A DNA stretch of 64,000 nt. Origin: Raillietiella orientalis (taxonomy: Eukaryota). A model generated the notes under the pieces. That model was not told the origin of the DNA. It saw nothing but the letters and a program-made list of their open reading frames with translations, and made no database searches. The position numbers and the translations under genes were made by a program. Of this stretch, positions 200 through 49,259 are shown one piece after another. The DNA lies in NCBI GenBank assembly GCA_036172245.1, contig JAYWIR010000019.1, positions 1,488,001 to 1,552,000 on the forward strand, written 5' to 3'. Every line of letters begins with the position of its first letter. Within the stretch, counting starts at the first letter, position 1.

Positions 200-780
200 G
201 CGGCCAAGTGAATGGTGACCTCCTCACGTTGTAAGAAGCGTTGTGGGTTCGAATCCTGCTAGGGGAAGGACCGATGCTAAGAATAGGTGGGCACGCCGTG
301 GGTTTCGGGTTTCCCTCCCCGCAGGATGAGGCTAATAGGCCTATTCGGGAGCGGCCTTTGAGGAAGCAGGATGCTTCCGTTGAGTGGCCTTCCGGGAATC
401 GAGTATCCCAATCGAGTATCTCCTCCAGTTGTGAAGATGGAAGCGTTCCGTGAAGCTGATCGATACCTTCCTCGGGGGAAGTTCCATTCCAGAGTGTCAG
501 GAAGCGCGCTGATCCCATCAGGGAGCTCCCTTCAGAGAAATCGGGAAGTGTTACTTCCCGGTTCTCTTTAGAAGAGTAAGAGGGAGCGGTTCCTTTGTGG
601 GTTCCCTTCGAATAAGAAACAAGTGTGCCCTCCCCTCCGGGGGGTCCCTCCAGGGAAAATAAAAAAGAGGTTACCTTCGGGGTTTCTCTACCAAGCTTGA
701 GAGGAACCGACTCCTTTCTCAGGAGTCTTCCTGCATCCATGGGGTAGTCCCTACAAGCTACAAGGTGGCTCCCTAAATTG
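200..780 (+). mobile_element. tRNA-headed SINE-like repeat (family A), copy 1
   Basis: B-box GGTTCGAATCC at 246-256, then the same body as the copies at 6.5, 39.2, 41.6 and 48.6 kb (ccccgcaggatga, cctccagttgtg, ccaagcttgagaggaac). Confidence 0.6.
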
Positions 781-1649
781 AAGAGCACTGCTACTATTCT
801 ATTACAATCTTCCTGCCGTTCTATCACCATCTTGCTTATGTTCAAGTGCCATTCCGTTACGATCCTGCTGGTGTTTTCTTTTAATTTGAATGCGTATCGA
901 CTGGGCGGATGTACTGCGTGTGCTGCTGACTTGGTGTTTGCTGGTGTGGAAGACCTGCTGCGAGTGCAGGAGACCTCAGAACCGGCCATGAGGAGGGGCG
1001 CGAAGGGGGACGTCAGCAGTCTCGACGCGATTCCTAAGCGTGGGACAGGAGCGCACGCTCGCTTGTGTGCGCGCGTCGGAGGAGCCAAGTGGCAGGGCGG
1101 CGAGGGAGGCGCAGATGTGGGGCGCGCGGCGACTGTAAGGAGGGAAGGCGCTCCAGGGGGTGTTCCCTCACGGAAGAAGGGAATCCTGCTGGAGGAGACG
1201 GGAGGGGTGGGCGTAGAACGCCCCACCCTCTCTCCGTTCGAGGAGGGGGACGATGACGACGAGACCGGAGGTCATGCTTCCGGGAAGCGCCGCTCAAGGC
1301 CGCGAAGGGGGTCACGCCCGCCCCCTCGCTGCAAGAAAACCGGACTGCGCCTCGCGGGGCGGCGCACGCACCCGGACGACCTCTGCTGCGGGAGGTTACC
1401 CGGCTGCCCAAAGGGCCGGGGAGCAGCGCCCGCTTCCCGCGTACCTTCAGGCGAAGCGGAGGTGGTCTCGATGCCCTTCCGCCTTAGATCTCGGGGGAGC
1501 CCTCGCATCGAACCCCGGGCGACCAGCACGGCGAGCACTCAAACGCTCTCAGCCGTGGCAGTGCGGTTGGCATTCCGTTGTTGGTGACCGCGGGTCACGC
1601 TCCGAGCTGACCGCGGCAAACGAGAGCGAGAGCTGGCACGAAGCTCCCA

Positions 1650-2270
1650 GTGGAGCCTGGAGGGCAGCTCCCAAAGAAACGCAGAGCTCACAAATGCGTG
1701 CGGCCTTCCTGAGAGGACCAATGGGAGAGGAGGAACAAACGCGAAGGGCCCATCACCGACATGGGGCCCCAAAGGCAGGAGGAGATGCGGGGAGGGTCTG
1801 GTTTCCCGGCTCGCACCGGCGCTGCACCACCCTATTCGAGCATTCCTCCCTTCCAGGCCGGGGTCGCAGCATCCTGGACGTCGGTCATCTCGCCCGGAGG
1901 TACGGTCGACCGGGCTGGACTTCCGGGACCTTTCGCTGGTTGGGATCCCCCAGGCAACCGCACGGAGGATGAGAACCTGTAGTCTCGGGACGGACTCACC
2001 TTCGATGCTGCGGGCAGTCATGACACAGCGGCTCCGCTGCTACTCCCTCTGTGAGAGAGAAGGCAACGAGGGTGAGGGCAGCAGGGCGCTGTCGCTGGGG
2101 TCCCCCCTGCCACAATTGGGAGAGAGAGTGGAGACGTTCCAAGGGGTGCGCAGAGGTTGTTTCGTTCCCATCGAGTCCCCCGAGCCCTCTTCCTGAGGAG
2201 CGCTCGAACCGCTGGTAGGAGAAGGGGAGGCCCGCGCCACGGCACCTCCCCTCAGGCTGCCCCTTCGTTC
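1650..2270 (+). mobile_element. Highly decayed L1/Tx1-type reverse transcriptase fragment
   Basis: Ordered motif remnants across frames: (R)PIT, GRSILD, TFD..SH, TRVR..G.LS, GVRRGC. Confidence 0.5.
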
Positions 2271-3099
2271 CAGGCCCTTCCTGGGGGAGAAGGGAGCGCC
2301 CTCGAATGCTCGCCTTCCCTCTCCCTCTATCCGGCGATTCCGATGGAGCGGGGGGTCCCATCCCCATGGCTGCGACCTTTCGGAACCCGTTGGGTTCTTC
2401 GATGGGGAGGTAGAGGGAAAGTGAGAGGGGCGAGGGAGCTCTCAGCACTCCTGGCCCGCGAGGGACCGGAGTGCCCTGGGAGAGCGCCCTCTGCCGGCGG
2501 GGACGAGGGCTCTCTCTCGTTGCGCCATGCCCCTCTTCCGGTGCGGAGCGCGTGTCCGGGAAGGACGTCCCCTAAGAAGCAGCGGGCGCAGGTGAGGACA
2601 ATGAACCCAGGAAAGGGGAAACGCGCGCAACTCTTCCAGACTGTCCCCTATGCCCCTAGGGCGCAGGGGAATCCGCGACGTGTCCACGGAGGCGCCAGTT
2701 CCGCAGGACGGACAGCCGAGATCGCGGAGGAGCCCCTAGGACGGCATCGAACGCCCAGGGATGGGTGGCGCTCCTGTCGCAGACACCGCGCTGGAACCCC
2801 ATTTCCACAGTGATGCCGTTCCGCTCCGAACCTGGCGCAGTTTTCCCGGCACGGCACTGAGAGCGGTCTCGGAGTCCAGGGCTGCGGTCCTCCTTCAGGT
2901 GAAATGGAAAGGCATCTCACGGGGAAGGAGACCCTCCCCCCTCGTCTTCCCCCTAAGGCTTCGCTGTCCCGGCCCCCTTAGAGGTATCCTTTGTCCCGTC
3001 ACCCCTGCGCGGGTTCACGGAGAACCGCCGCCCGCCCTGGCGCTGAGGCGTGAAGGTGGAGACAAGATAGCTGCCGCTTTCCGCTTCCTGCCGCCGTGA

Positions 3100-6000: not shown

Positions 6001-6460
6001 TGCGACCGAAGGGAAGAAGCACCTCCCTCCTCCCCTTTCACCCCGCCGCCCATGGGGTAGATGCGCCTGTGCCGCTGCTCTCCGGAGAATCCGTTGGAAC
6101 GTCGGCAGAGTCGCACCTCGGAACGCTGCCGGTGGCGTCCGCAAGACAGGACCGCGCTGGCTGAGATCTCAAAAGGCTTACCGTGCATCCGGCGAACCTC
6201 GCACGTCCTGGGATTCGGAGGGAGAGGGAAAGCCGGCATGGGGGTCGGTTCGCAAGATTCCCGGATGCCCACTCGGGAGTGACGGAGGGTGGACCGACCT
6301 GCCTAGGGATCGTTCCTCATCCACCCACGCTTGCCTGAGGTCCGTCGCTTTCGAGAGCTTCGGATCCGTGGAGCTGTCGGTCGCCCCGAAGTGCCCTTTC
6401 GCCTGACTGAACCCCCACCAAACTGACAAAGCGACTTCCTGGGGGGTCCAGGAAAGCATC
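3100..6460 (-). mobile_element. Highly decayed L1/Tx1-type ORF2 (APE to RT to thumb), interrupted by unrelated sequence at ~4860-5850
   Basis: Ordered remnants on the minus strand: DLRQAW (APE), QSSRAR (linker), WRKCVQKGDVPATF, LGFPIGLVRL, CYLG, TLCRPRREGLGG. Confidence 0.5.
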
Positions 6461-6479
6461 AACGTCCCCGGTTTCTCCG

Positions 6480-7140
6480 TCTCCGACGCCTCCGCGCGCG
6501 GTACGAAGCGGTGAGGGTTCGTATCCCACCAGGTGAAACATGGACGTCGAACAGTGGGTGCGTCATGGGTGTCGAGTTCCCCCCGCAGGATGACTCTGAC
6601 TGGCCCACGGGTTTCTGTGGGAGCCGGAAATCCCCGGTTGCCCCCGTTGACTGGCCGGGATTGGAAGGCGACCCTCCGGGGTCCTTCCAGGGACCAAGGA
6701 ACCCTTTGTGATTCCTCTCCAGTTGTGCAAATGAGGCAGTGCCATCACGTGCCATTGTGCTGGGGTTGATACCCCCCTTCAGGGGCCCAGAAGCCCACTA
6801 ATTTAGGGGATCCTTTCCCGGGTGTTTCCTCCAGAAAGAATAGGGAAGAAGAGGTTCCCTTCAGGGTTCCCTCCGGAAACAGCCAGGGCGAGCGTTCCCT
6901 TCCGAGCGCGAGAGGAGCAGACTCCTTCCTCCCGAGCCTTCCTGGATTCACAGGGTTGTTCCTCCAGGGTTGCTCCCCATAACTTGAAGACCTACGCCCA
7001 TCCTCAGGTAGCGTGGACAGCGTCAAAGAGCTTAGTGAGCTCCCTCGAAGGAGGCGAACGGTCCTTCGGGACTTGGTGACCCCAAAAGGGGGGGGGGGGA
7101 GGGAAGAAGATGGAAGGACAGCAGCGAAAGCAGAGAAGCG
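6480..7140 (+). mobile_element. SINE-like family A, copy 2
   Basis: Head tccgcgcgcggtacgaagcggtgagggttcgtatccc (B-box-like 6516-6526), shared body, purine-rich tail near 7085-7140. Confidence 0.65.
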
Positions 7141-7149
7141 ACCGGACGC

Positions 7150-7350
7150 CAGGACGACTCTTTGCTCAAGATGAACGCTGCAGGGCGTGTGAAGGCGAGG
7201 AAACCCAATTCCACTACGCGCTCATCTGCCCAACGCTGCTCCGAAACTGGGAAACGCTGGAGGCGGTGACGAGCTCCCAGAGCATCTCAGGGATCGAGGT
7301 CCCGGAAGGATTGCTTCCGAGGAATGGCGACGTTCCCAGGAAACGGAAAC
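7150..7350 (+). mobile_element. Non-LTR ORF2 zinc-finger fragment (not family B)
   Basis: RCRACEGEETQFHYALICPTLLRNW fits the CX2C-X-ET-H-C-W pattern. Confidence 0.55.
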
Positions 7351-7354
7351 CAGA

Positions 7355-7460
7355 TGCCGGTTGACCGGCCGGGATCGGGAGTCGACCCTCCGGGATCCCT
7401 CCAGGAACTGAGAGGCCCTTAAGGACCTCCCTCCGGTTGCGGAGAAGGGACCGATCCTGA
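7355..7460 (+). mobile_element. SINE-like family A, internal fragment
   Basis: ttgaccggccgggatcgggagtcgaccctccgggatccctccagg matches 6647-6695 and 39336-39380. Confidence 0.5.
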
Positions 7461-8034
7461 AAACGGTGGAGAGATGAGAGAAGACGTGCGAGCGATGGAG
7501 ATGGGCGAAAGGGCGCACGTATTCCTCCCTGGCTTGTTGCTCCCTTTCGGCTTCAGGTACCACGAAGCTGTGGGCGTCCCGTCACCCGTTTTGCTGGCTC
7601 AAACGGGTGGGAGGCATCCGGGCGACCTGTTCCGCAACCGAGGACGGCGGCGGTGGCAACCGGAAGAGGCGCCGCCGAAGAGTACCTTGAAAACCGTCGT
7701 GGCGACCTCTCCAGCCGTTTCGGTTGCCTCCGAAGACCACCTGAGGTTCCCGAAACGCGATCTTTCGCCCGAAGCGGGCGGCAGGGCGAGGCTTCCCCGC
7801 TGGCGCTTTCCGACAGGCGAGGCTTCCCGTTCTCTATCGGAGGAGCCCGAAGGTAACCCGAAAAGAACGGCGCCAGCGACCAGCAGATCTTCGTAGTAAG
7901 CGCAGCGGACCCTTTTCCTCGGGAGCTGTCGACACGTGATTCTGGAAGCGTAGAAACGACGGATGAGAAAAACAGGTGCGCAAGAACCACGTAGATTCCC
8001 TCGTCATCATTCCCTTCCCAGAGTAAGCCGTCAT

Positions 8035-8930
8035 GGCCGTTTCCTAAAAATTCAACATGGTGGCTGTCATTCCTAGAAAGAAAGAAAAAAACTTTTTCTT
8101 CTTAGGGGGATTACATTTCCCTTGCTGGCAACTCCATTCAGATGGGTAAGAAGTGGGCGCTGAGGAGCTGCCCTCCAGCGCGCGCCCGGAACCATTCGGC
8201 ACGGCGCTTCCGCGTGCCGTGTCGAGGAGCTTCGAGAAAAGCGCACCAACGGGTGCAAGTGGGACCTTTGGCAAACGGGAGGAGAATGGAGGTCATCTTC
8301 GGAAAGGCATCTCACGTAGCATCCGAGAGCGGATGGAACCGACGCGGCCATCTTGGAAACGGAAAACCGGGCTCTCGAGATTCGAGCAGCGGCAAACCGG
8401 TCGAGAGAGGGTTTTTTTTTTTTTCCGAGCTGCTCGTCCGCGAAAGACCCGAGCAGTGCGGGTGTCTGCGTGCAACCGAATTCCGCGATTCGGTGGAAAA
8501 ATGCAAAGGCGGGAGCGACACCGGGAATAATCGAAAGCAGCAACTGGAAGTAACCCACTGGAAGGCGATCACGTGGCCTTCGAGGTTCTGAGGTTGAGCT
8601 TGAGCCGGCTCAACGCGATTTCGAAGGACAGCCATAGAAGAAGCGTTTCGGTCGCTTCCTAAAAGTTTAGCATGGTGGCTGCCACTTCGGAAAAGAAAAA
8701 AACACAAAAAATTCTTCTCCTCCTTCGTAGGTGGATTGCATTTCCCTTGACGACACCTCCATTCAGATGGATAAATGGACGCTCAGGAGAATGTATCTCT
8801 CCGGAGTTAGTTACTTCCTCCAAACAATGAACTTGAGCTTAATAAACATTAAGTTTATTGACCTCTTGAAAAGCAAAGATTTGACACTTCGACAAGGTGC
8901 AACTTGCGGATACCTTGAAAAAACGCCAAC
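8035..8930 (+). repeat. Degenerate direct repeat, two units about 615-640 bp apart
   Basis: ttcctaaaa.tt.a.catggtggctg...catttccctt...ctccattcagatgg at ~8041-8145 and ~8656-8770; a further match at 8251 vs 8894. Confidence 0.7.
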
Positions 8931-9099
8931 AGCATAAATTTCACCCATTGGTGCAGCATAAAATTATATATAAAATTGAGTGCAAAAATTCTCGATTGCA
9001 AGAAAGATTTTTGCTTATTTCTGATTATAATGCTGCCACGTACATCCCCCCCCCCCCAACTTCCTCCAGCCCTCCCCTCCTCCGGAACCAGCCTGGATA

Positions 9100-9693: not shown

Positions 9694-9697
<4 letters not shown>

Positions 9698-13363: not shown

Positions 13364-13401
13364 ATCCAAAGCTCCTATATATATATATATAGGAGCTTTG
13401 G

Positions 13402-16067: not shown

Positions 16068-16619
16068 ATCTTTTATGCATCTTGAATACGATTGTTCGCT
16101 CTCAATGGCACTGTAGAATTCACGGGTCGTTGTCTTCCTTCGTGAATTTTCGGTGCTATGGAGAGAAGCAGTCCGCTCGTCACTCTCATCAACTTGTGCA
16201 CTGAGTGTTGCGTAAATGTGAGTGCTCCTCAATCATGATATGTTTTTTGCAATGCAATCTTTCCATATATCAGCATGGTGCCTGTGCTCATTCAGCCTTC
16301 TGTTTTTTGTTTTTACTCGCTTTTATTGTTTTCGAATTTTGAATATATATATATACATGTGTGTGTGTGTGTATATGTATATATACATATATGCATATAT
16401 TTTCCCCTGTTGCTGATTTTCTTACCTCGACCGATGCTACGAGCCAGCGTACTCACAGGAAGCGGTGAATCGAAATGCCGAAAAATGTGGATGTAGATCA
16501 TGAAAGAAGCAAAAAAGGACGTTTCGGGATGAAAGCTGCGGTTATTTTGCACGTTTCAGATATGGATGCACGTAAAGGTCATGCATGTAACACATGGCAC
16601 AGTATATGAATTGGTCGGT

Positions 16620-27279: not shown

Positions 27280-28380
27280 CCCGAAAAGTTAAATCAATCA
27301 CAGATTCCGACTTTGAGGCGAGCGCGTGTGGACATCGACACCCGGGTGTATGGAGTGATACTCGCCGAGGGGAGTCATGGATGGGGGAGAGGAAGCGACG
27401 ATCAGAGGGACAGCAGGTGCGCGGGAGAGAGTGGCAGCAACATGAACGCGTCCCTTCGCGATCCGCAAAGGAGTCCGTTCGATCGAGAGATGGAGTCCAA
27501 AACAGCGGCGTTGCCGACCGAAGCGCCGACCCGCCGAAGCAGGTAGGGTGGGGTTCCTCGCGCCAAGCTGCTGCATCAAAAGTCCGAAAAGCAGGGCACC
27601 GAGCACTCAAGGGTCGCTCAGTTCAAGGACCATCCTTGAATCGTTGGAAGCATTGCTTCGCAAGCCTTTAGGACACAAGACCAAAAGGACGAGGGGGGGA
27701 GGAGAAGGAGGGAATCCACTGCCCCTTCCTGCCATCCTGGTTTCCTACTATCCGGTGCATCTTCTTGAGGACGAACCTTTGTTCGCCAGTATTTGTTTGT
27801 GCGTTCTTCCTCACGGAGCCTCATCTTCTTCGGAGACTCTTCCTCGCGGGAAGAAGTGAGGAAGAAGAAGTCGGGAATGATCTCTCGTTTCCTTTTGCGT
27901 GACTCCGACGTGCCGCACATCCAAGCTGGACTGGATGCAGCCGAGGAAGCACCGTGTCTGCCGGCAGATCCGTGCCTCTTCTCCTCTCGAGGATCGCCTT
28001 AGAACTTCTTCCTTCCCTGCGGACGGTAGAAGAGAGTTTCGTGCAGAACCCTTCGCCACGAAACGGAGATTCGTCTTCAAGAGGATGCACCGGGTAGGGG
28101 GGAACCAGGATGGCAGGAAGGCAGTGGACCCTCCCCCCTTCCCCACTCGTTCTTTGGGTCTCGTGTCCTAAAGGCTCGTGCACCATTGCCTTCAGCAATT
28201 CAAGGATGGCCCTTGAACTGCGCGACCCTCGAGTGCACCGGCTTGCAGGGTTCGCCGACGGAGCGAAAGAAAGTGCGCCTCCGCATCCGCTGCTGGCGCG
28301 CAAGGCACGCGCGCTCCCTCCCGGCGTTTCTTCTCCGATCGAAGCACTCCTGGAGGTGGCCCTCATCCATAGAACGGAAT
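27280..28380. mobile_element. Cluster of decayed L1/Tx1 ORF2 pieces in both orientations (two copies of one C-terminal segment flanking an APE piece)
   Basis: 27603-27780 and 28067-28236 are reverse-complement homologues (SFWSCVLKACEAMLPTIQGWSLN vs SFFGSRVLKARAPLPSAIQGWPLN); 27861-27960 repeats at 29599-29695. Confidence 0.5.
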
Positions 28381-29399: not shown

Positions 29400-30050
29400 T
29401 GCTGTGTCCGTTTCGTGATGCTGACGCGTCAGTTCCGATCGGTCCGATCGGAAAAATGATGTGAAGTTGGCGGTGTCGTTTTCAACCTGTGCACGCTGGA
29501 AGTTCCCTCGCCAGGAAACCCCTTTTTGCCTTTTTGCACGGGAAGCATCCGCCTGCAAGGGTGATCAAGGAGTCTCCGGAGAAAATGGGGATCCGCGAGG
29601 AAGAAGTCGGGAGAGATCTCTCGTTTCCTGCCTGCGTCCTCCGACGTGCCACACATCCGTGAGGGACTGAATGCAGCCGGGGAAGCCCCGCGTCTTCAGG
29701 TAGACCTGTGTGCCACTCTTCTCAGGAGCATTGCCCCCGGGCATTTGGAATTATGAAACGTTTCCTGCTTTCTTGAATGCATTTCGGCTCTTCGGGACGA
29801 TAAGATCAGCGACCGAACTGGCAACGGTTCCAAATTCACTTCGGAGATCACTTGTGGCTGATCCGCGTCTGCTCTGGAGATCTCCTCAACGAAATCAAGA
29901 TTCGGCATTCCCTCGACTGATGGTGCATTTTCTTTGGCTAACATTCTCACCCCTCGAGTTCTTCCGTAGTAGCCGTCGCTGTTGTGATTTTTTTTTTTTT
30001 TTTCTTGATCCAGAAATTCCTCGGTATGCGCACGTTTGGGAAGATTGAAT
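29400..30050 (-). mobile_element. Decayed APE endonuclease domain (L1/Tx1 type)
   Basis: GRTRGVRML, GFPGCIQSLTD (GDFNC-like) and LQADASR...VSWRGNFQRAQVE in order. Confidence 0.45.
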
Positions 30051-33000
30051 TGGCATGCGCCACCATCGACAGGAAAAGGGAAAAGACCACCACCATGGGA
30101 AAATACGTACCAGAGAGTTCCCTGACCTGACATACAAAGTGTGAATTCTCATCCGAAGGGAACAGTAGCCGAAAAAGAGCAGTTCCGAAAGCAGTGTGCC
30201 CAGTGAACTTTCGTAGTAACAATTTCCTGTCATTCTTGGCACTGAAGAATTCACAGATATCATAACGAAAAGATCGTGGGTTCCTTAGTGCCAGATATGA
30301 AAGGATTTATGCCGGAAGCACGAGGTGTCCATTTGGCGATGTTCGAGTCCCATGTTTCCCTTTTGCTCGCTTTCGTTCTCTCAAGATGGATGGGGAAGGC
30401 GAGACGTGGCACGCTTACGTGTGGGTGATCGGAAGGCATCAAGACATGGCTTTGGCTCCAAACTGCGGTCCTGGTCCACGCTCGGACAGCCGAGAAGTTC
30501 CTGAAAGAGGCCCGCCTCTTGAGGCGTGAGGCGCTCCAGGGTTTCAAGTCGCCAAAGCATTTCCACGAAGGCGAGGGGGAAAAGCAAAAAGGGAAAACCG
30601 AGGAATCAGAAGGAAGAGCAGAGAGGATCCTCAAACCGCGTGCTTTCCATCTCGACGGAGGCGCGAGGGTCGCTCTACAAAGGACAAAGGAAGCCAAGAT
30701 CGAGCGTTCCAGTTTATCGAACTTGGCTGTGCACTAATGTTTCACATTCTTCCTCATTCTGGAAGTCTCCGTGACAACACATCCGCTAGGCTGCTAATGC
30801 AAAATTGTCATATCCAGTATTTCGTATCTCCTAATTTTTTTTTTTTTTTTTCTCGTAGCCCTATCTTAGCGATGCGTGGCTTGTGTCCTTAATTACAGGA
30901 TTCCATGAATGCCTATGTTTGAGTGCACGCAGTATCACGCAAACACTAATAGCGTGATTTTATCTCGCAACTAGGAAAAGATTCATGCGAAGAGATTTTC
31001 TTTTCTTTTTTTTTTTAAATTCGCTGGGTTTCCGGTCACCTTTTGGCTGCGCCTTGCCAAGGGAGGAACGGATGGGTGAGCTTAGCTCGGAACGTACTGC
31101 CGGGCCGCTTCGTTGGTGGTGGGCGCAGTCGGTCTGACTGCGTGAAATGCAGTTTGCATCCTGTCCGAGAGATTGGTCCATCAGGAGCCGAACGAAGAAG
31201 GTTTCTCCCGTGGCGTGTCTGCTTCCTCGGCGTGAAAAGGGCTCTCGTGGTGGGGAGATCTTTTGGTCCGATTTTGAGTCCCCTGCGAGGACAGCACTCT
31301 CAGCGGATCGAGGACCAACACATTCTGGAACGAAGCAAGGATTCCCTGACCTGGTCTGTCGTAAGGTTCAGATGGTTGCAGATGAGCGAAGAAAAAAAAA
31401 AAAAGAAGGAAGACCGAGCGATGCTTTCTCCATATCGCCTGTTTCCAAAGACTTCCGTAGACTTCGGTCCTTGCAGAAATGCCAGCCTGAGACCACGGGA
31501 TTAGAATCTGCGCTCGCATTCCTGCGAGACAGAGAGCTTTGTTCATGACGATACAACGATTCCGTCTGGGAAAAAAAAAAAACATGCATTGGGATGGAAG
31601 AGGTGAAAAAGAGCTCCTTTTGTCCAGATTTGATTCTGCATGAGGATGGTAACATTGATTCAATAATGTTGCGACTGTACCTAACTGAATGATCCCCGGA
31701 TAGCAAACCTGTATACGTTGGAGTTTATATATTTCCCGTGCATACCCACACACATACATGCCTGTGCATCCGCATTTATGTGTATACGTACACATGTGTG
31801 TCCATGAGTCCTCGTATGCACCTGCGTGTGTATGAGTGCATGTATACGTACAAATGCACGTACGCGTGGATCCGAATCCGTTTTAAATCTACTCCAGAAA
31901 CCCGTGTATCCTGAAACAGCCACCCAGTTCCCATTTTATAAAGGCACCCGCTCTTTGAGCTGTACAAACGTGCTCTTTACAAACGTGCTGGTCACCTGCA
32001 TCCCCATAATTTGCCAGAAATGTTGGGGGGATTGGCAGGAGAATTTCACCTCAGTGGTGGGCTGGTAGGCAAGGGGGGAGGGGGGAAGGTCTACCATTCA
32101 CTCACTAACTTTGAAATCCGTCGAGGATTCACGCCTGCCTTTTGAATGGGCCCCGGCCTTCCTGCCAGACTGCAAGTGTTCTGAGGTGTCTCAGCACCAC
32201 CAGAAAGTCACAAGAGATTCCAGGAAATTTCCTTTCCTCCGAAAGGAAGCCTCTCGACAGTCCCACGCGTTTCCGTGCTAAGCCGAGAAACTTGGGACGG
32301 GAATCCGGGAAACTCCTCCGGATCGGTTTCGGATGCAGAGCGCCGCGAAAACGTGGGGTGTTCGAGTGACGTCGGCTCACGAAGTGTCAGGATGAAACGA
32401 AGAATTCGCTGTCGCATTTCCTGACGTGTAGAGTGTGGAATGTTCTTTCGTGGAAACGGAAACTCCCAAGAATTCCGTCCCGAAGTGGTCAGCTGGAACA
32501 CCAGGAAGGAAACGCATGGAGCGGGTGAGTGGAAGAACCGGAAATCTCGCACAGTGGAAAGGCAGATGGTCCGTTCCCCCTCTTGTGCCGACGTGAAGAC
32601 ACCCTCTCTCGGTCAACGGAAGAGAAGTCGGTGGTGTCGGGTTCAGGTGCTCCGCGTGGCTGGTCTTCCTTTCAGCCATCCGTTTGTCCCTTTTCGCGTA
32701 AGGGGAAGCAGCAGAAGCCCCCCTGGATCGCTGGAACAGCGTGTCTTCGGAATTGCACCATCGAAGTGTAGGTGTTGCAGGCCGCAAAGGACATCCAAAT
32801 TGGGTCGAGAAAAAACTTTGGAGAATGAGAGGGCAAAGTGAGTCTTGCCCTCGCTTTAGATGTCTTAGCAAGCTCAAGCATCAGTCGCCTTCCATGAAGA
32901 AAACACGGGAAAAGATGGTAGAGCCGGCAACCACCGTCGCCGTCGTTTAAATTCATGTCTGAAACGACTCGATCTTCAAGGGAGTGATCACTGAATCTGC

Positions 33001-38339: not shown

Positions 38340-38480
38340 GGAAAATAAGGAAGAAGAGGTTTCCTCTTCCGGGGTTCCTTTCAGATTGCCCTTCCAAGCG
38401 TGAGAGGAACGGACTCCTCCCTCCGGAGCTTCCTGGATTCATGGTGGGTGCTCCCTTCCTGGGTATCTCCTAACTGGAAG
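38340..38480 (+). mobile_element. SINE-like family A, 3' body fragment
   Basis: gaagaagaggtttcc...ccaagcgtgagaggaacggactcc...ttcctggattcat matches 6845-6950 and 39696-39770. Confidence 0.55.
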
Positions 38481-39159
38481 AAGTCAGGAGATCCCTGGTC
38501 CTTCTGAGAAAGGGGCGCAGCTGCGAGGCAGGGCCCACTTCAGCGTTCGCACCCAAGCAGAGGCCGAACCGCCTCCGCGATAGAACTCGCGCACGCGGAG
38601 AGATGCGGCGATCCCTTCCACCTCTCAGGCACACACAGCCTTCAGCCCTTCCCCCTTCGGGTATCCTGAGGGACCGGTTCCCCTTTTCCTTTGCGATCTC
38701 CTGAGTCCCGAACTCACTCGCACATCCCGCTCAGTAGGGAAAGATGGGGTCCCCTTCTTCGCGGAGGCGCATCCTTAATCGCTCAGGGGGTCCTCTTCCT
38801 TCATTCGTTGCAATTCAAATGATGAACCGCATCCGAAGTCACGTTCGCCCTCCCTTCGCTGAGGTCCTCGGATACCGGAAATTTCTTGCGAGGAGGCAAG
38901 CGGGCTGCCTGTCGCTGCCCTGCCGGAATTCTACTCCTCCCCTGCCTTCCGTGGATCACGATCTGTCGACCGCGACGTCTCGACCCCACCCATGCGGTAT
39001 GAGGAGCCCCCATCGAGGTTCCGATGTGCGGAAGCGAAGTGCCGCCCACCACCTCTTCTCTGAAATCAACCAGGGGTGCTTCGGAGAGGGGAGGGCTCTC
39101 TGAGGAATTCCGCTGAATTGCCCCTTCCCGCAGACCGCATTTCCGGGCCCACATTGGAG

Positions 39160-39945
39160 ACCGCGTGGCTGCAGTCTCTTCCGCGCGTTGCACGAAGCAT
39201 TGCGGGTTCGAATCTCGCCCGGGAAGGATCGACTCCAGAGAAAATGGGGGTGTCCAGTCTCCCCCGCAAGATGACACCGGTCGGACCGTTCGATCGTGTC
39301 AGTGGAGGGAGTTGGAAACCCCCCGATGACCCCACTGACTGGCCGGGATTGGAAGTTGACCCTCTGGGATCCTTCCAGAAACCAAGAAGTCGTCCTCCTC
39401 CAGTCGTGAAAAAATGGGGCTGCCCTTCCCATCGGAAGGGGACCCTCCATCGCGCATCATGGAGCTGGTGGATTGATACGTGTCCAGAGTGTGAGGAAGC
39501 GTGCTGCTCCCTTCGGAGAGCGCTTTTCAGGGAAATCCGGAAGCGTCCCTTCGGGGTTCTCTTCATAAGGGGGAACAGTTTCCTCGCAGTTTCCTCTCTC
39601 CGAAGAAGAAATTCCAGCTGAGGATCCTTTCCTTGTTCCTTTCGGAGTTGAAATGAGGAGTAGTCCCCTTCGTGGAACCCCTTTGGAGAGAACAAAGAAG
39701 AGGTTTCCTTCGGGGTTCCCTCCCAAAGCTCAAGAGGAACGGATCTCCGCAGGAGCCTTTGTGGATGCATAGGGTGGTCGCTTCCCGGGTATCCCCTAAC
39801 CCGAAGAGCCCACACGCACTCCAGGGTGGCGCTGAAGAGCGCTGAGTAGCTTCATGGACCTGCAGGCAGACGGTTCTTTAGCGCTCTGCGAACCTCCCCC
39901 CCCCCTTCCTCCAAAAAAAAAAGCCGAGGAAAGTTTTGTTTAAGC
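39160..39945 (+). mobile_element. SINE-like family A, near full-length copy
   Basis: Head ccgcgcgttgcacgaagcattgcgggttcgaatctc (B-box 39205-39215), full shared body, A-rich tail at ~39913-39922. Confidence 0.7.
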
Positions 39946-41619: not shown

Positions 41620-42572
41620 GGGCTGTGAGGTTGCGGTCTCCGCGCGTTGCACGAAGCGTTGAGAGTTCGAATCCCGCCCGGAGAAGGAATGACACCAGAG
41701 AAATGGATGCGTCGTGGGTTCCAGTTCTTCCCACAAGATGACGCAGGTTGGACCGTTCGAGTGCGGCACTGGTCGACACCCGGTCATGCCGGGCCGTTTA
41801 TTTATAAAAAATAAACGTCTGTGGCAGGACGTCTGATCCCGCCACTTCACTTGTACATATGAGAAGAAACCTTCCGGGAACTGACAAGCAGGCCAGTGGG
41901 GTTCCCCAAGGCAGCACAAGGGAGACAAATGAAGAGAAAAAAAATAAAAAAAAAAAGCATACACTCAAAAAAAATGAAGGAAAGGGGGGAGTTCGGGAAG
42001 AGATCACTGTGTGCTGGAGGGTGTCCTCTGCATCCTTGTAAGGATGCTCGCAAGTTTCTGTTTCAAGACTCCCAGATGGGGCCATCTTGACGCCATCCTT
42101 AAAAATATGACAGCAAAGTAAATAGAGTCCCTGTCGTCCTGGCATCCTCTGGCGTTGTTCCATGCAGCCACGATCTCACCACGTGGGCAGCAAAGTGCTG
42201 CTGGGGGTATGGCCGTCGTGAGGGAGTCGTGCAGGAAGAGGCGCTTTCAAATGTCTCTGGCGTTGCCAAAGCGTCCCTAAGGGGGTCGGAGAGCAACACA
42301 GCTCACTAGGAGGTTAGGGAGGGATTCCCGCTCCTTGCACAGTTTGGGTCCACACATCCCCGTGTCCAGTGATGTCGGCAAGCGTTGCACGGGAGGCCCC
42401 AGCCGAGTGCGGCACTGGTGGAAGTCGGAGACTCCGGATGACTCCGTTGACTGGCCGCCGGGACTGGGAGTTGTGCCTCCTGGGTTCTTCCAGGAGTCAA
42501 GGAGCCGTTCCCCCAAAGAAGAAGGAATTTCAGGAGCGCACATCCTTTCCGGGTTCCCTTAGGAGACAGCCA
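41620..42572 (+). mobile_element. SINE-like family A copy split by a LINE insertion (pieces 41620-41773 and 42404-42572)
   Basis: Head with AGTTCGAATCC at 41664-41674; the body resumes after the duplicated 16-mer cgagtgcggcactggt. Confidence 0.7.
41774..42403 (-). mobile_element. 5'-truncated Tx1/L1-like LINE (family B) with a 16-bp target-site duplication
   Basis: Minus strand encodes WGLPCNACRHHWTRGCVDPNCARCKERESLPNLL (zinc finger, with frameshift), then 3'UTR and AATAAA (41797-41802). Flanked by identical cgagtgcggcactggt at 41758-41773 and 42404-42419. Confidence 0.85.
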
Positions 42573-42666
42573 CACGGTTCTGACGCGCTTTTTCAGTGCT
42601 TCGTCTTGCCTAAATTAGGGACCTTTTTCCTTGTTGTTCGTGTAGTGGTGCATCGACGGTGTCCAC

Positions 42667-43795
42667 ATGGCAGCAATGCCTGGGAACATTGCGATGGATG
42701 TTGGGGGGGGGGAGAAGAAAGCCAATTCCTCTTCCGAAGCAATGGAAGTGGGGACGTCCGTTCCCACAGGATCGTCCTCTCCGGAAGCGAGGAAATGGAG
42801 CGCCGTGGCTGCAGCGTCATCAGCAGCGCCATCACCGAATCGAATGCTCACCGGGCCCTCACTCATCTACAAGGTAGATGGCTTGTCTGTGGACAGCACT
42901 GCTCACTCCTTCGCGAGGGAGCTGCACAATTTAAGTTTCCAGGAGGAAGACCTCGAAGGCTTTTCCATATGAAGCGTGGGCCAGCACGTTGAACTGACCT
43001 GTAAGATGGCAGAGCTGGAGCAACGCTTGCTGAAGACCCCAATCACGGTGGAAAGCCACAGGATCTTCCCTGCGAAAAAGGACCGTTCCGTAGTAGTTCA
43101 CCTCACAGGCATCATGCTCCGCATCCCCAAGGACGCAGTGCATCTGGAGCTCAGAAGACATGGCACCGTGCACGCGCTGTAGGCCTGGCCCCTTCGAGGG
43201 CGTTGGGAAGCTCTTCAGCGAACTAGCCGCAGAGCGCGTGACACGGCAGCAGCGGGGCTCTCCTGCAAGCTGAAGATCAGCAGTGAGCTGGTCGATCCTT
43301 GGTACGTGAGTAATCCCAAGTGCTGTGGTCACTGTGATGTCACGGGGCATCTAAAAAAGAGGTGCACAAACATCCAGTGCCACCTTTGAGGAAAAAAGGA
43401 AGACACATTAGATAAGTGTGCCCGAAAAGTGTGTCCCCGGTCCTCAATGGCGCGGAAGTTGGGAAAGGAAAGCGCGCAGACAAACCGAGAAAGGAAAAGC
43501 AAAGGAAGGACGGACGAATTCCCAGCACGAGCAGCAGAAGCCGAAAGCTCAAATTTCCGAAGTAGCCGACACGGAAGAGGGCTGGCAGCTGGTGGAATCC
43601 AAAAGAAAGGGGAAAAAAGGCAGGGAAAAACGGAGAACTTCGCCACCCTCGAAGAAACAAGAAACCTCGCGGTGCGAAAAAATCCGGAAATGCAAGGTGG
43701 TCATGGAGCGCGTCCTGGCAATCGAAGCCGCCACCGCAGGAGAAACTGCTCCCGCCGCCGGAACTCACGAACGCGAGCGCTCCCTGCAAGCAGAG
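42667..43795 (+). pseudogene. Degenerate ORF1 (gag-like, CCHC zinc knuckles) of a Tx1/L1-clade LINE
   Basis: One frame from ATG 42667 with stops at 42970 and 43180. Contains VVVHLTGIMLRIPKDAVHLELRRHGTV, a CX2CX4HX4C knuckle CGHCDVTGHLKKRC (43324-43365), a decayed second knuckle, and EEGWQLVESKRK after a frameshift. Confidence 0.8.
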
Positions 43796-43796
43796 T

Positions 43797-44830
43797 TGTC
43801 ACTCGGGTACGCCCGGACGTTTATTTGATACAAAAATAAACATCCACAATTTTTGTGGTAGGACCGATGGGTCTAACCACGTCCACTTACAAAGATAGCC
43901 TGCCGGGTAGCCGGGACGCAGACCGGAGAGGTTCGCCCCAGCAGCAGAGGGGAGGAGGCAAAAAGAAAAATAAATAAAAATACAAAAGTAAATAAAAGTG
44001 AACTCAGAGGGAGGAATAGAGTGCGGGAAGGGATCACGTCCTGCTGGGGGCGGTCCTTTGCATCCTTTGAAGGATGCCGGCAAGCTCTTGCTGCATGCAC
44101 TTCAGATCGGGCCATCTCGTTGCCAACCTCACGAATCGGACGGCGAAGCCCGCAGGCATCACTGGACACGGGGTGAATCCGAACTGTACCAGGTGCAAGG
44201 AAAGGGAATCCTTCCCACACCTGCTTGTGGATTCTGTTGCCCTTCGGTCCCTCTGAGAACGCTTCGCCGCGAATCTAGGAACCCCCGGAGGCAATTCCAG
44301 GGACGCTGTGAAACCCCTCCTCGCCCGCCCCTGTGGCATACCTGTCGCTGTGCCCTGCTCTTGCCTTCAGTCCGGGCCACTGCAGTTCCGTGTAGTTAGC
44401 AGAGGGTTGCAAAGGAGGCTGCCGGATGAGGTGCGTCGCGGACGAGGAGGGGTTTCGGACCGTTTCTGGCGTCGCCGCCAGAGGCTCCTGGGGTAGCGGC
44501 AAAAAGTTCCCGGAGGGACTGAAAGGCAGCTCAATCCACAATCAGATTGGGGAGGGATTCCCATTCCTTGCACCTGGCACAGTTAGGGTTCACACACCCC
44601 CGTGTCTAGTAATGCCTGCGGACGTTGCACGGGAGACACCATCGCAGAAGCATCAATGCTGACTCCTGCCACTTCAAGGGAAGGGTGTGGGTGTCCTAGA
44701 GTACGACAAGAGCATTTGGGGTCACTGCGGGTCTTCCTCCGGAACATGCAGCTCGCCCCAGCGCAGAAGCTCTCAGTGTGGGGCACTCGGGTCGCAGCGT
44801 CTTTAAACTGACCCGTGTTCACTCATGCAG
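43797..44830 (-). mobile_element. 5'-truncated family B LINE copy, interrupted by an opposite-strand family B fragment (~44140-44335)
   Basis: Minus strand: LPLKWQESALMLLRWCLPCNVRRH, NCARCKEWESLPNL, then RFVRLATRWPDLKCMQQELAGILQRM-stop, 3'UTR, AATAAA at 43820-43825. Confidence 0.8.
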
Positions 44831-45199
44831 TTCTTTTCTCTTGCCAGAGATCTCTATAGATACCTTATATCTTGCTGAAATGCTGCTGCCCATCTGTTCC
44901 CTCAGGGAGGGAAGTGCTGCGTGAAGTATAAGAGAAGAACCTCCTTACAAGGGAGGTTCTTCCTGCCCACGCACTCTTCCCAGGATGTTGAAGGATCTCC
45001 CGGAGCGAGCACCTCTTGTAAGGTCCTTGCAGGAATCGCTGGGTCTGTTCCGGACATTACTCTGGTTCCTCTACCACGTGAGAACGGTTTCCTGCAGCCA
45101 GGCCCTACCGTTCGCGGGGAAATAGGAGATGCAGTTGTCGTTCGTCCTGGTCAGCGAAGTCACCTGCCGGAGCTGCAGGCCGAAGTGGGAGAGCCTGCG

Positions 45200-46965
45200 T
45201 CGACGGCGAGCAAGGAAGGACGCGAGGTCCACGCTGGCAGTGGGCTTAATGAAAGAAGAGGCGTGCTGGTGGTGCTTCACGGCTATGCCACGAGGGCGAG
45301 TCTTCGGATCTGGAGCTGAATCTCCATCCACTCCAGCGTCAGAAGACCCAGTCCACCATCCCTGTGCGGAGTACACGAGTCCTTCAGTAGGACCCGGTAC
45401 CTCCCTGTGTCTTAAAGGCGATGAGGAGGAGGTCCTTCACCCGTTATCTGATGATCTCTGGTGGGAGGCAAACAAAAAGCAGGGGGTTAAGGAAGGGGCC
45501 ACGTTCGCTGCTCCCGTCCTCCATCTTCTACATTTTGTGTATCCCCTCTTCTGAGAAGGGAAAAAGCAGACGAAGAACCTCTTGCGAATCGCCTTGTTGG
45601 GGGACGGGAAGTCCCGGGTCCAGCTGAAGGAGTCGTGTGCTCCGCGTAGACGGCAGCCTCAGCCTGCTGACGCTGATGGAGTTTCAGCTCCGATGGCGAA
45701 CGATGGCCATTGCCGCGAAGTACTGAAGCACCCCCTGGTGCATTCCTGTACGCCTCCTCGCCAGTCGTGTGTCCCGTACGGAAGGACTGGCCTCCTACCT
45801 TTTGTGCCCGTCCAGAGGATGAGAAGATGCGGTCTCCTCCTCGAACGCATGGCCGGCTTGGCGAAGGAAAACGTCTCGATGGCCTGCTGCCCCGCCAACT
45901 CTGGCACCTGGCTAGAAGAATCTGTTGGCACGTGCGTGAAGATGAATGAACCCAGCTCAGTGATATGGAACTGCATGCGGCTCGACATCCACGCCCGCTG
46001 CTCATTGCGGAAGATCCTGGAGTGTCCCAGCATGAGTACGGGGGTGCAGCGGATCACTCTCGCGGCAACGATGCCCCTCCTGAGGAGGGCACGTGGCAGC
46101 AGCCAACCGTCGAGTTGTGAATTCTCCTGTGAGATCGCAGGCAGGCGGAAACTGATGAGTGGTTGGACCATGGGACAGCTGGAGGATTCTTCAATTCCGA
46201 TTGCCCTTTCACGAGGACTCCAGCGCTGGGGAGAGCTGCTCGGCATTCCTAGAGAAGACCTGGAGTGGTCCCCAGTGCTCAATGACAGCAGCGTCCTCCC
46301 CCTGAAGTGGCAGCAGTCGGCACTTCCGCTGCTGCCATGGAGTCTTCCCTGCAACTCACGTCGACACCACTAGGCGCAGGGAGTGGCGAGCCCGAACTGT
46401 CGCAGGTTTGGGGAGCGGAAATCCCTCCCCCACCTGCTTGTGGACTGTACTGCCCTATGGAAACGCTTTTCTGCGACCCTATGAACTTCCGGCGACAGTT
46501 CCAGGGACGTTTTATGACTCCTCTTTGTGCGGGATGCCCCGTAGCCAGCTGCGGCCCAGCAGCTCTTTGCTGCATTCTCGGGATTGTGACGGCATGGAGC
46601 GACTCTGAAGCAGGAGCGAACGAAAGGGACGCCATCGAGGATGCACTTCGTTTTCTGCGGATGGCAGCCGGATGACCCCACTCAGGGTATGATCAGGACC
46701 AACCTAAGCGTCATCCTGGAAAGGATGCAGAGGACTCCCTCCAGCGGACTGTAATCCCTTCCCGGCCCTCCAGTGTTCATTTATTTTTGGTTTTACTTTT
46801 CTTTTGTTTCCCCTCTCCCTTCGGCTGCTGAGGGGAATCTCATCGTTCTGCGGACCGGCAACCCGGCGGGTCCATGGACAAATTGAGCGTGGTAGGACCA
46901 CGCTCCTTACTACAATTTGTGAGCTCGTTTTGAATTTTAATAAACACCCCGGCGTGTCCGGTGGA
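45200..46965 (+). mobile_element. Family B LINE, decayed ORF2 C-terminal half plus 3'UTR
   Basis: RWGELLGIPREDLEW...LPLKWQQSAL...LPCNSRRHH and KSLPHLLVDC are homologous to ORF 47478-48167; 3'UTR with AATAAA at 46939-46944. Confidence 0.8.
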
Positions 46966-46971
46966 AATTAC

Positions 46972-47200
46972 TCCATACCAAGCGTGAGAGGAACGGTCTT
47001 CTGGAGCCCTTCCTGGATCCATAGAATGGTCCTTCGAGAGTTGTCTCCCAGCTTGAAGAGTGACACGCACCCTCAGGTGGCGTGGACCATGTCAAAGGGC
47101 TTCGTGGGCCCCTTCATGGAGGCGAACGGTTCTTCAGCATTCCTTGAAAACCAAAAAAAAAAAAAAAGCTATAAGGAAAGCAGCGAAAACAGAAGTCCAA
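46972..47200 (+). mobile_element. SINE-like family A, 3' half with A-rich tail
   Basis: ccaagcgtgagaggaacgg...cctcaggtggcgtggac...ggaggcgaacggttctt followed by an A-run; colinear with 6900-7140. Confidence 0.65.
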
Positions 47201-47479
47201 AGAATTTCCTTCATCTTGCATTTGTTTTTTTCCCAATCGAATAAATCCCCATCCAGGGCAACCCTTTGAGAAAAGAGGGTATCCCGCATAGCCCCTCAAA
47301 ACCTCCAAGTTCCCCGGAAACTGCAAAAGTTTTCCACTGTTCTCTTCACTCGCAAAATGGCGGAGACTCCTGGTCGTGCGGCTACAATTGGAGATACGAA
47401 ATCGGGATTGCTACTTCCTTGCAGTACTTTCTGGTCCTCATGTCCGAGTGCGCCCTCCCACTTAGTGGGGCTTAGTCAT

Positions 47480-48380
47480 GAGGGGTAACGAGGTTCTGAG
47501 CTGGACAATCCCAGCTCGCATGGACCTCCCTACGTGCTCTGTTTTGACCTCGCTTCCAGCTCGCCGGTGGACCATGAGGGAACTGGCAGACGCCGCAACC
47601 CCAAGCGTTCACCCGCATGGAATACGGAGATGGGGCGAGCTGCTTGGCATCCCGGCGGATGACCTAGAGTGGCCCCCGTTGTTCATAGACTCATCCACCC
47701 TCCCCCTCAAGTGGCACGAAACGGCGCTGCTGTTGTTGCACTGGGGTCTTCCCTGCAACGCGCGCCGCCACCACTGGACGTTGGGGAACGTGGGACAGAA
47801 CTGTGCAGTGTGCGGGGAGAAGGAATCCCTCCCCCATCTGTTAGTGGACTGCGCTGCCCTCCAGCCCTTGTGGGAACGTTATGCTACGACCCTCCCTATG
47901 CCGGGAGGCAGTACCCCCAGAGACGTTCTGAGACTCCTCTTCGTGCGAGACGCCCTGCCACCAGCCTCAACCCTGGCAGCGCTTTGCTGCCTCCGAGGGA
48001 TTGTGGCCGCCTGGAGCGCAGCCAACAGAGGAAGCAGAGATAGGGACCCCATCGTACACGCGGGTCGCTACCTGCGAATCGCGATCGGCTGGTCCCATCT
48101 GGGAGCTATGACGAGGGACCTCGAGGGCATCCTGGAAAGGATGGTCTCCTCCTCCAGCGGGTTGTGATCCCTTCCCGGCCCCCCAAATAGTTTCTTTTTG
48201 TTATTTCATTTATTTTTCTTTTTGTTTTACCCCCTACCCCCCCTCTGCCGAGGAGAGTCAAGTCGGTCTGAGAACCGGCTTCCTGGCAGGTCCCAGGAAC
48301 TATTGGCCGTAGCGGGGCCTAGTACCGCAGATGTACTGTGTGTTTTTTTTTTTTAATAAACGCCCCGGCGTGACCGGGTG
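47480..48380 (+). mobile_element. 5'-truncated family B LINE; best-preserved ORF2 C-terminus (open to stop at 48167)
   Basis: CAVCGEKESLPHLLVDC is the CX2C-X-E-H-C zinc-binding motif C-terminal to RT in L1/Tx1 ORF2; T-rich 3'UTR, AATAAA at 48355-48360. Confidence 0.85.
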
Positions 48381-48587
48381 AAAACTTCCAGCTCGCCGAT
48401 TCGATGACCCCCATTCCTGAATTCGCCATTCGCTAAATTGTGGTCGTGTCTGAATCCCATCCTGAGAGGGGTGCACCCAAACATCGTCGAGGGAACTCTA
48501 CCTGTCATCGCTGCGACTGGGTGTGGCGACGTCTGGGGATGGGAATCGTACGGGAACGAATGGCATAAAGACAGAGATTAATAAAAA

Positions 48588-49259
48588 GCGTCGGAGGCTT
48601 TGTGGTTAAGACTTCCGTGCGTGGCACTATGCGTCACGGGTTCGAATACTCCGGCAGAAACTGACGCCACTGCGTCGTTGGGTTCCCAGTTTCTCCTGCA
48701 ATGGCACTGGTTGGTCGAAACATTCGGGCGTGGCACCGGTGGTCTTTTAAACCGGAGGCCCCCGATGAAGGCCGGAACAATGAAGGTCGAACTTCGGGTC
48801 CTTCCAGGAATCAAGGAGTGGGGAGTTCCCCCTCCGGTTGTACAACGGAGAGCGGACCCCCTCACTGGGGGACCCCTCCGGTTTCAAGATGGAGCAGGAG
48901 CCTTCACAGGCACCTCTCCAGCTATTCAAAGAAGCGGACCCTACCTCTTTCGGGGGGGGACCCTCCAAGTCGTCGCCTCTTCACAGAGTGCAAGGAAGCA
49001 AGCGAAAGAGATCCCCCTGCGGGAAGCTGCAGCGCCCCTTCTGAATTTCGGAAGCATCCCTTCGGGGTTCTCTTTAGAGGAGTGAACAGGAGCGGTTTCC
49101 TTGCAGGTTCCCTCGGGAGAAGAAATTCCTACTAGCGGATCCTTTCCGGGTCCCCTTCGGAGAAGATGAAATGGAGAGGACCACCCTCTTTCCTGGGAGG
49201 TCCCTTCGGAGAGAAGGAGGAAGGAGATTCCCTTCTGGGTTCCCCTTCGGAGACAACCA
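48588..49259 (+). mobile_element. SINE-like family A copy, 3'-truncated
   Basis: A-box-like aggctttgtggttaag and B-box GGTTCGAATAC (48639-48649), shared body with internal ccttcggggttc sub-repeats; breaks after ggagacaacca. Confidence 0.65.

What the first reader, a model, noticed from the sequence alone, without database searches (positions are those of the whole stretch)
200..49259. Unusually long (~0.7-0.8 kb) tRNA-headed SINE-like family, about 8 copies, all on the + strand
Seen: five copies (B-boxes at 246, 6516, 39205, 41664, 48639) start with a related head (approx. GGAGGCnnnGTGGTT..GTCTCCGCGCGTTGCACGAAGCGTTGCGGGTTCGAATCC) and continue into a shared body; three more are headless fragments. 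The body has recurring ccttc(g)gggttc(c)cttcggag sub-repeats (e.g. 49056, 49138, 49190, 49227) and ends in an A/purine-rich tail. Known: A/B boxes are the internal Pol III promoter of tRNA-derived SINEs, most of which are shorter than this. Inference: a possibly unnamed lineage-specific SINE enlarged by internal sub-repeats. All eight pieces share one orientation while the LINE relics are mixed, which is unexpected. I cannot assign the parent tRNA.
Basis: partly seen in the sequence, partly recalled or inferred. Interest (0 to 1): 0.7.

Follow-up and report, generated by a model that had tools for sequence, protein, structure and literature searches.

The report
Long SINE hit by site-specific LINEs
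This is a real, unusually long (about 1 kb) non-coding jumping element with a tRNA-like start and a body of repeated small hairpins; its shared orientation here is probably chance, but another jumping gene has landed many times at one exact base inside it.

Summary
The family is real and behaves as a tRNA-headed, poly(A)-tailed retroposon (SINE type) in a 210-Mb arthropod-like genome. Young full-length copies are longer than reported: 796-1092 nt, median 1053, 17 of 21 over 1 kb. They have a sharp 5' end, a head closest to tRNA-Arg, 11-12 bulged GC hairpins about 40 nt apart, a terminal hairpin, a T run and poly(A). Target-site duplications occur in 9 of 21 against 1 of 420 controls. At least 1,174 copies exist. 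The strand bias does not generalise: 267 forward/263 reverse genome-wide, 52 of 97 pairs within 64 kb alike; the window holds about seven insertions, not eight. An L1/Tx1-type LINE sits antisense at one base of the element: 83 exact junctions, inserts of 53-929 nt, so independent insertions rather than one amplified hybrid. The window has one such case (41774). Pol III transcription, the mobilising LINE and Dfam/Repbase status are untested. This scan noted both the hairpin SINE and LINE targeting before on other DNA of this genome; the genome-wide counts were made here.

The parts
191..786 (+). Old-subfamily copy, head to about old-model position 686; 3' part missing
   Evidence: 79% to old, 69% to young majority
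6481..7136 (+). Old-subfamily copy, head eroded, internal deletion
7116..7337 (+). Decayed LINE ORF2 C-terminal fragment between two SINE pieces
   Evidence: tblastn E 2e-7, 34%
7344..7455 (+). Headless SINE fragment (old model 169-288)
38341..38484 (+). Headless SINE fragment (old model 562-687)
39147..39925 (+). Old-subfamily copy, head to the internal A tract
41621..41774 (+). 5' part of a split copy (old model 12-163), ending at LINE site A
41774..42403 (-). 5'-truncated L1/Tx1-type LINE 3' end (about 630 nt) inserted antisense at site A, flanked by a duplicated target of about 16 bp
   Evidence: same junction class
42405..42566 (+). Middle part of the split copy (old model 148-252 and 479-523)
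42570..46970 (+). Decayed sense LINE (ORF1 remnant with Cys/His knuckle-like motifs near 43300-43420; ORF2 end and 3' UTR at 45500-46970) with nested antisense LINE pieces; probably inserted near SINE site B
   Evidence: that it is one element is inferred
46972..47215 (+). 3' SINE piece (old model 591-842), probably the end of the copy starting at 41621
   Evidence: inferred from collinearity
47563..48390 (+). Younger 5'-truncated LINE with a weak zf-RVT match; not inside a SINE
   Evidence: E 1.3e-4, below the curated cut-off
48588..49293 (+). Young-subfamily copy, head and hairpin array to about young position 725; 3' part replaced by an antisense LINE piece
   Evidence: 90% to young majority
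48638..48649 (+). B-box-like motif of the young copy
   Evidence: sequence; exact 15-mer of this region 530 times in the genome, control 0

Best explanation
A selfish non-autonomous retroposon of the SINE type. A head derived probably from tRNA-Arg (4-nt insertion after position 8, anticodon arm replaced) supplies an internal Pol III promoter (inferred). The polymerase reads about 1.05 kb of body lacking T4 runs and stops at the T run after a terminal hairpin (inferred from sequence). The RNA gains an A tail and is copied by target-primed reverse transcription by an L1/Tx1-group LINE protein that needs mainly an A tract (shown: poly(A), duplications starting mostly with an A run, 5' truncations, copies ending at internal A tracts with a duplication; inferred: the enzyme). 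The body grew by duplication and decay of one roughly 40-nt palindromic unit. Being abundant and dispensable, the element became a landing site: one L1/Tx1-type LINE subfamily inserts antisense at one base (site A; shown), others probably at further sites. The all-plus orientation in this window is most likely chance.
For: Common 5' start in most of 29 other loci. 9 of 21 full-length copies with a strict duplication against 1 of 420 mismatched pairs; 9 of 28 against 3 of 784 in a partly overlapping set. 6 of 9 shorter tail-bearing copies show a duplication under a looser, uncontrolled search. 17 of 21 have no T4 before the end. Head 48 of 78 columns (62%) identical to the genome's tRNA-Arg(CCT), the best of 49 tRNA genes; an Arg tRNA is best for 11 of 18 old heads. 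Copies: 530 and 1,174 exact motif matches, controls 0 and 8. Site A: 83 exact junctions, control 0; 19 of 20 sampled have the SINE head upstream and 16 of 20 the continuation after 53-929 nt; 16 of 20 further LINE ends without the exact junction are also at this site; 2 of 5 copies in two blind 60-kb blocks break there. Orientation.
Against: No mobilising LINE was identified: none of the LINE 3' ends inspected has poly(A) or the SINE's terminal hairpin; only a 15-18-nt likeness to the 3' UTR of one LINE variant was seen. About 10 of 29 young copies stop just before the terminal hairpin, nine with no duplication found, which simple poly(A) priming does not explain. 12 of 21 full-length copies failed the strict duplication test. 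The tRNA assignment is soft: Arg(CCT) is best for only 6 of 14 young heads, and the old majority ties Asp(GTC) with Arg(TCT); 13 of 62 tRNA hits were not in the set and no Leu, Ile or Tyr tRNA was. Length exceeds the SINEBase limits.
Confidence: 0.85

Rival explanations
1. The hairpin array is a functional RNA scaffold kept by selection among source copies (protein binding, stability or ribosome association that aids retroposition), not just a decayed palindromic minisatellite.
For: Both subfamilies keep 11-12 modules at about 70-78% mutual identity. In one hairpin tested, 94.2% of cells pair, 3 of 9 pairs change on both sides, with a G-C / G-U / A-U series (1 of 500 shuffles for cells). Local folding z = -4.5, -3.3, -2.0 in three copies.
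Against: The reverse complement folds as well or better (-261 vs -265, -259 vs -259, -260 vs -237 kcal/mol), so DNA-level palindrome repair fits too. The two-sided changes amount to about three inherited events in one hairpin, chosen by me; the pair-count measure was reached by 23 of 500 shuffles. Copies lacking modules still moved (796-990 nt).
Confidence: 0.3
2. The shared + orientation is a real local effect, for example retention or insertion in sense within a long transcription unit (both mir-263 hairpins and the Abl gene are on +).
For: Seven insertions all on +: two-sided P = 0.016. mir-263 matches at 16093 and 30224 score best on +.
Against: The test is post hoc among roughly 3,300 windows of this size. 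52 of 97 pairs within 64 kb and 8 of 16 within 10 kb agree; 7 of 10 neighbours within 3.5 kb (P = 0.34); a blind block had 2 plus and 2 minus. No transcript across the region was shown.
Confidence: 0.15
3. It is a Pol II-transcribed non-autonomous LINE derivative or composite (SVA-like) whose tRNA-like head is vestigial.
For: Length over 1 kb; repeat-built body; head only 62% tRNA-like.
Against: 5' end coincides with tRNA position 1; T4 runs confined to the end in 17 of 21; no match to LINE 5' ends or ORFs fetched; no AATAAA before the tail in the copy read in full.
Confidence: 0.07
4. The SINE-LINE junctions at site A come from one chimeric element that amplified.
For: The LINE tail ends in a few bases that match the target, and all junctions share base and orientation. 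Three pairs of insert lengths are near-identical (555/556, 708/709, and 657/669 loosely).
Against: Insert lengths range 53-929 nt among 16 loci, each followed by a second copy of the target; five further inserts of about 210-820 nt; 4 of 20 such LINE ends lie outside the SINE.
Confidence: 0.05

Closest known systems
tRNA-derived SINEs as defined in SINEBase (Vassetzky and Kramerov, PMC3531059; abstract, introduction, definitions and database sections read)
   Same: Head-body-tail layout, at least 100 copies, at least 60% identity to a tRNA over 60 nt, non-coding, interspersed.
   Different: Young subfamily exceeds both stated limits (<700 bp; <1 kb operational). No LINE-derived tail identified. 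Terminal hairpin plus T run before poly(A).
CHRS quasi-oligomeric SINE (passage in PMC3531059)
   Same: Body built from a degenerate motif repeated more than ten times, with variants differing in repeat number.
   Different: Unit here is about 40 nt and palindromic, against about 20 nt; no sequence comparison was possible; different animal group.
Tx1-Mar, Tx1-9_AMi and Xenopus Tx1 (Kojima 2015, PMC4494074; passages read)
   Same: L1/Tx1-group LINEs that insert preferentially at fixed positions of another transposon, with one antisense and one sense hotspot in Mariner-N4_AMi.
   Different: Targets named in the passages are DNA transposons, LTR elements, U2 genes or microsatellites; here the target is a SINE-type retroposon. 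The SINE here does not share the LINE's target. Tx1 versus L1 clade was not resolved by a tree.
Alu and SVA (recalled, not from a call)
   Same: Poly(A)-dependent mobilisation by an L1-type enzyme, internal A-tract priming, repeat-enlarged body (SVA).
   Different: tRNA head rather than 7SL; SVA is Pol II-transcribed.

Membership tests
SINE (SINEBase definition) | Short: <700 bp, operationally <1 kb | tested here: not met
   17 of 21 young full-length copies exceed 1,000 nt; four motif-bounded old copies are 814-873 nt and meet the 1-kb limit only. It works like a SINE but the young subfamily falls outside the formal cut-off.
SINE (SINEBase definition) | Interspersed, at least 100 copies | tested here: met
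   530 and 1,174 exact motif matches on many contigs.
SINE (SINEBase definition) | At least 60% identity to a tRNA over at least 60 nt | tested here: met
   Young majority 48 of 78 (62%) to tRNA-Arg(CCT); old majority 62-63% to Arg(TCT) and Asp(GTC). Marginal.
SINE (SINEBase definition) | [quoted passage not shown] | not testable with these tools
   Only sequence hints (B box, terminal T run).
SINE (SINEBase definition) | Non-autonomous retroposition by a partner LINE | tested here: inconclusive
   Retroposition hallmarks met and non-coding; partner not identified.
Named SINE family (Dfam/Repbase/SINEBase) | Sequence match to a catalogued consensus or central domain | not testable with these tools
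   No such library is held; Rfam gave no match at gathering level; SINEBase supplements unreadable.
LTR or LINE 5' UTR | Adjoins retroelement ORFs at a fixed end; LTR-type termini | tested here: not met
   Flanks unrelated between loci; poly(A) end; profile hits in RT loci are interrupted or adjacent copies.
Target-specific Tx1-type LINE (site-A element) | More than 20% of flanks in one target type (criterion in PMC4494074) | tested here: met
   16 of 20 LINE ends lacking the exact junction, and 19 of 20 with it, lie at SINE site A. The search motif may include 2-3 target bases, which raises the share slightly.
Target-specific Tx1-type LINE (site-A element) | RT phylogeny within the Tx1 clade | not tested
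   No intact ORF2 of this subfamily was fetched. Its 3' ends are 59-63% like a family with a weak zf-RVT match; the dominant family is endonuclease-RT with L1-type relatives at about 30%.

The most novel reading that the evidence does not exclude
A roughly 1.05-kb Pol III retroposon whose hairpin array is a selected RNA scaffold and which has become a multi-site landing platform for several L1/Tx1 lineages (site A antisense, site B sense, site C antisense), with the young subfamily having changed the site-A sequence and so escaped that LINE: a parasite-of-a-parasite arms race readable from one genome. Site A targeting is well supported; selection on the array and escape are not shown (the young copies examined were chosen as unbroken matches, and the LINE may have died before the young burst).
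Probability: 0.15. Interest if true: 0.7.

Novelty: new variant of a known kind. Interest (0 to 1): 0.42.

Why it matters
It pushes the working length limit of tRNA-headed SINEs past 1 kb and shows one route there (duplication of a T-poor palindromic unit that avoids Pol III stops). It also gives a countable case of a LINE homing to one base of a SINE, with at least 83 filled sites, many empty ones and related LINE subfamilies with other targets, which is good material for asking how L1/Tx1 endonucleases change target. Both strategies are known in kind (quasi-oligomeric SINEs; Tx1 elements in other transposons), and no host function is indicated.

Tried and rejected
Hammerhead ribozyme near 48770: suggested by one window copy, dropped because the other copies lack the core and Rfam shows none. 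tRNA-His as parent: ranked low against the genome's own gene. ARAGORN finds no tRNA in the window. Tandem Repeats Finder does not see the array. The within-locus orientation count (49 same, 4 opposite) was an artefact of single copies counted as two; one search replaces it (7 of 10). Pairs 50-200 kb apart were alike in 78 of 192, below half; the pairs are not independent and I draw nothing from it. The first duplication count ignored minus-strand loci and was redone. Partner search: the 30 best RT loci were all one family; 16 further stretches showed other families, none with the SINE tail; only 30 of 40 tail hits and 30 of 150 RT hits were fetched. Expression: no RNA holder listed; the contigs laid cannot show starts, ends or strand. 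Host group: Abl kinase is about 82% identical to insect proteins with no close relative, and its C-terminus found nothing, so 'arthropod-like' only. Orientation was sampled in 120 kb of blind blocks plus 40 kb of flank rather than the 600 kb planned. Literature searches listed no paper on this family or on a LINE targeting a SINE; the library lacks most subscription journals, Repbase Reports and Dfam. PMC4994717 (one passage) was irrelevant; PMC4758252 (passages) gave a typical length of 80-500 bp.
Full report
Setting. The window is G000:C19:1488001-1552000 of a 210-Mb assembly. It holds two mir-263 hairpins and an Abl kinase gene about 82% identical to insect proteins with no close relative listed, so the host is an arthropod-like animal; I did not place it further.

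Observation. The five stated B-box positions are right within 1-2 nt. Profiles built from copies elsewhere in the genome find nine pieces in the window, all on +. One (48588-49293) belongs to a young subfamily (90% to its majority sequence); the others are closer to an old subfamily (78-89%).

Anatomy. A search with the young window copy returned 40 scored matches at 86-89% identity, of which 30 were fetched. They share a sharp 5' end with unrelated flanks and run about 380 nt beyond the window copy. A search with the tail gave 40 matches, 30 fetched; 21 were full length, 796-1092 nt, median 1053, 17 over 1 kb. The order is tRNA-like head, hairpin array, internal A-rich stretch, terminal hairpin, T run, poly(A). 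These copies are 93-97% identical to their majority sequence, and 308 of 338 indels are not multiples of three, so the element is non-coding. Seventeen of 21 have no run of four T before the end; this fits Pol III read-through but is weak alone, as T is scarce. Exact motifs give lower bounds of 530 (head, control 0) and 1,174 copies (body, control 8).

Retroposition. Strict target-site duplications were found in 9 of 21 full-length copies against 1 of 420 mismatched pairs, and in 9 of 28 against 3 of 784 in a partly overlapping set. Most begin with an A run. Six of nine shorter tail-bearing copies show a duplication under a looser search without a control, and some copies end at internal A tracts or short homologies with a duplication (L005, L007, L010, L012). 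This is the pattern of target-primed reverse transcription with A-tract priming (established knowledge of L1-type enzymes, recalled). Against a tidy picture: about 10 of 29 young copies stop just before the terminal hairpin and nine of these show no duplication, and no LINE with poly(A) or the SINE tail was found among those inspected.

Head. Against 49 of the genome's tRNA genes (30 anticodon types; no Leu, Ile or Tyr), the young majority is closest to tRNA-Arg(CCT), 48 of 78 columns, with a 4-nt insertion after position 8. An Arg tRNA is best for 11 of 18 old heads, Arg(CCT) for 6 of 14 young heads, and the old majority ties Asp(GTC) with Arg(TCT). Arg is probable, not certain.

Body. A pattern finds 11 modules in the young and 12 in the old majority sequence, about 40 nt apart, each a bulged GC hairpin. 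Local folding beats shuffles (z -4.5, -3.3, -2.0) but the opposite strand folds as well. One hairpin across 38 copies is 94.2% paired with three pairs changed on both sides, about three inherited events. This does not separate selection on RNA from palindrome repair in DNA. Rfam gives nothing at gathering level.

Orientation. Genome-wide counts are even (267/263 and 573/601). Among 185 listed copies on six contigs, 52 of 97 pairs within 64 kb and 8 of 16 within 10 kb agree. Neighbours within 3.5 kb agree in 7 of 10; a blind 60-kb block had two plus and two minus copies. In the window, 41621-41774 and 42405-42566 are one copy, and 46972-47215 is probably its end: a decayed ORF1 starts right after 42566 and the LINE 3' end abuts 46972. 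Seven insertions on one strand give P = 0.016, unremarkable after the fact among some 3,300 windows, though a local effect is not excluded.

LINE targeting. Earlier notes of this scan proposed it from two or three copies per window; I tested it. The window insert at 41774-42403 is an antisense LINE 3' end with a duplicated target, and four loci fetched for SINE likeness show the same junction with inserts of about 210-820 nt (5 split against 76 unbroken). The exact 18-nt junction occurs 83 times, control 0. In the first 20, the SINE head lies upstream in 19 and the SINE resumes in 16 after 53-929 nt. The LINE end motif occurs 215 times; of 20 lacking the exact junction, 16 are at the same site, one of them about 10 nt further on, and 4 are outside the SINE. 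Two of five copies in the blind blocks break there. Independent, site-specific insertion is therefore well supported and one amplified hybrid is unlikely. A sense site near old position 587 is seen in four loci and probably at window 46970, and an antisense insertion of the dominant LINE family in one; these were not counted genome-wide. The junction motif uses the old-type site, so it cannot show whether young copies are hit.

Comparison. By the SINEBase criteria (PMC3531059, first fifth of the text read; supplements unreadable, and they hold the family table that bears on novelty), copy number and tRNA identity are met, and the length limit is not met by the young subfamily. It works like a SINE but sits just outside the formal definition. 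The repeat-built body recalls CHRS (same text). LINEs homing to fixed sites in other transposons are described for Tx1, Tx1-Mar and Tx1-9_AMi (PMC4494074, passages). Seven searches listed no paper on this family or on a SINE as target, in a library that lacks Repbase, Dfam and most subscription journals. The scan has described a matching hairpin SINE many times elsewhere in this genome; I could match those notes by description only, as the sequence look-up returned nothing.

Verdict. Real family, interpretation mostly right, length understated, strand bias probably chance. New variant of a known kind; interest 0.42, owed mainly to the length over 1 kb and the now counted LINE targeting.

Noticed in passing
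window 16093-16171 and 30224-30306 (+): Two mir-263 family hairpins 14 kb apart on the same strand; the second passes the Rfam gathering score, the first does not.
   Followed up: no
window 59393-62957 (+): Abl tyrosine kinase gene in long AT-rich exons (GC 0.32-0.40) beside GC-rich repeat DNA (0.55-0.67); its C-terminal region found no homologue.
   Followed up: partly
L192-L220, after about position 1975; also window 44687/45500 region: Most young copies of the LINE family at window 47563-48390 are followed directly by an antisense piece of LINE ORF2 zinc-finger DNA, suggesting a LINE that inserts into LINEs at a site sharing a short motif with SINE site A.
   Followed up: partly
L121-L123, L126, L135 (for example C71:66000-96000): The dominant L1/Tx1-type family forms head-to-tail arrays of about 5.5-kb units with very short UTRs, many with long open frames.
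   Followed up: no
L128 near 3600, L130 near 3150: RT-encoding elements whose 3' ends abut what looks like 28S rDNA in antisense at the same point (rDNA identity recalled, not searched).
   Followed up: no
L008, L013, L020, L022, L025, L029, L030, L004, L015: Young SINE copies that stop at young position 1024-1040, just before the terminal hairpin, with no A tail and no duplication found. Unexplained.
   Followed up: partly
L006 1401-2261; L021 5' flank: Inverted copies of the SINE head joined to the 5' end of a copy (about 80 nt and 18 nt), suggesting fold-back during second-strand synthesis.
   Followed up: no
L124 (C2:7158000-7167999): A 2.7-kb 5'-truncated copy of the dominant LINE family inserted antisense in a SINE copy at old position about 650 with a duplication of about 20 bp.
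   Followed up: partly
window 27603-27778 / 28067-28236, 27861-27974 / 29597-29710, 8035-8167 / 8650-8789: Other repeats in the window, the first an 82% inverted pair of 176 bp, possibly a MITE.
   Followed up: no
L177 and L178; L179 and L181: Pairs of near-identical SINE loci in opposite orientation 5-14 kb apart on C10 and C31, suggesting local inverted duplications.
   Followed up: no
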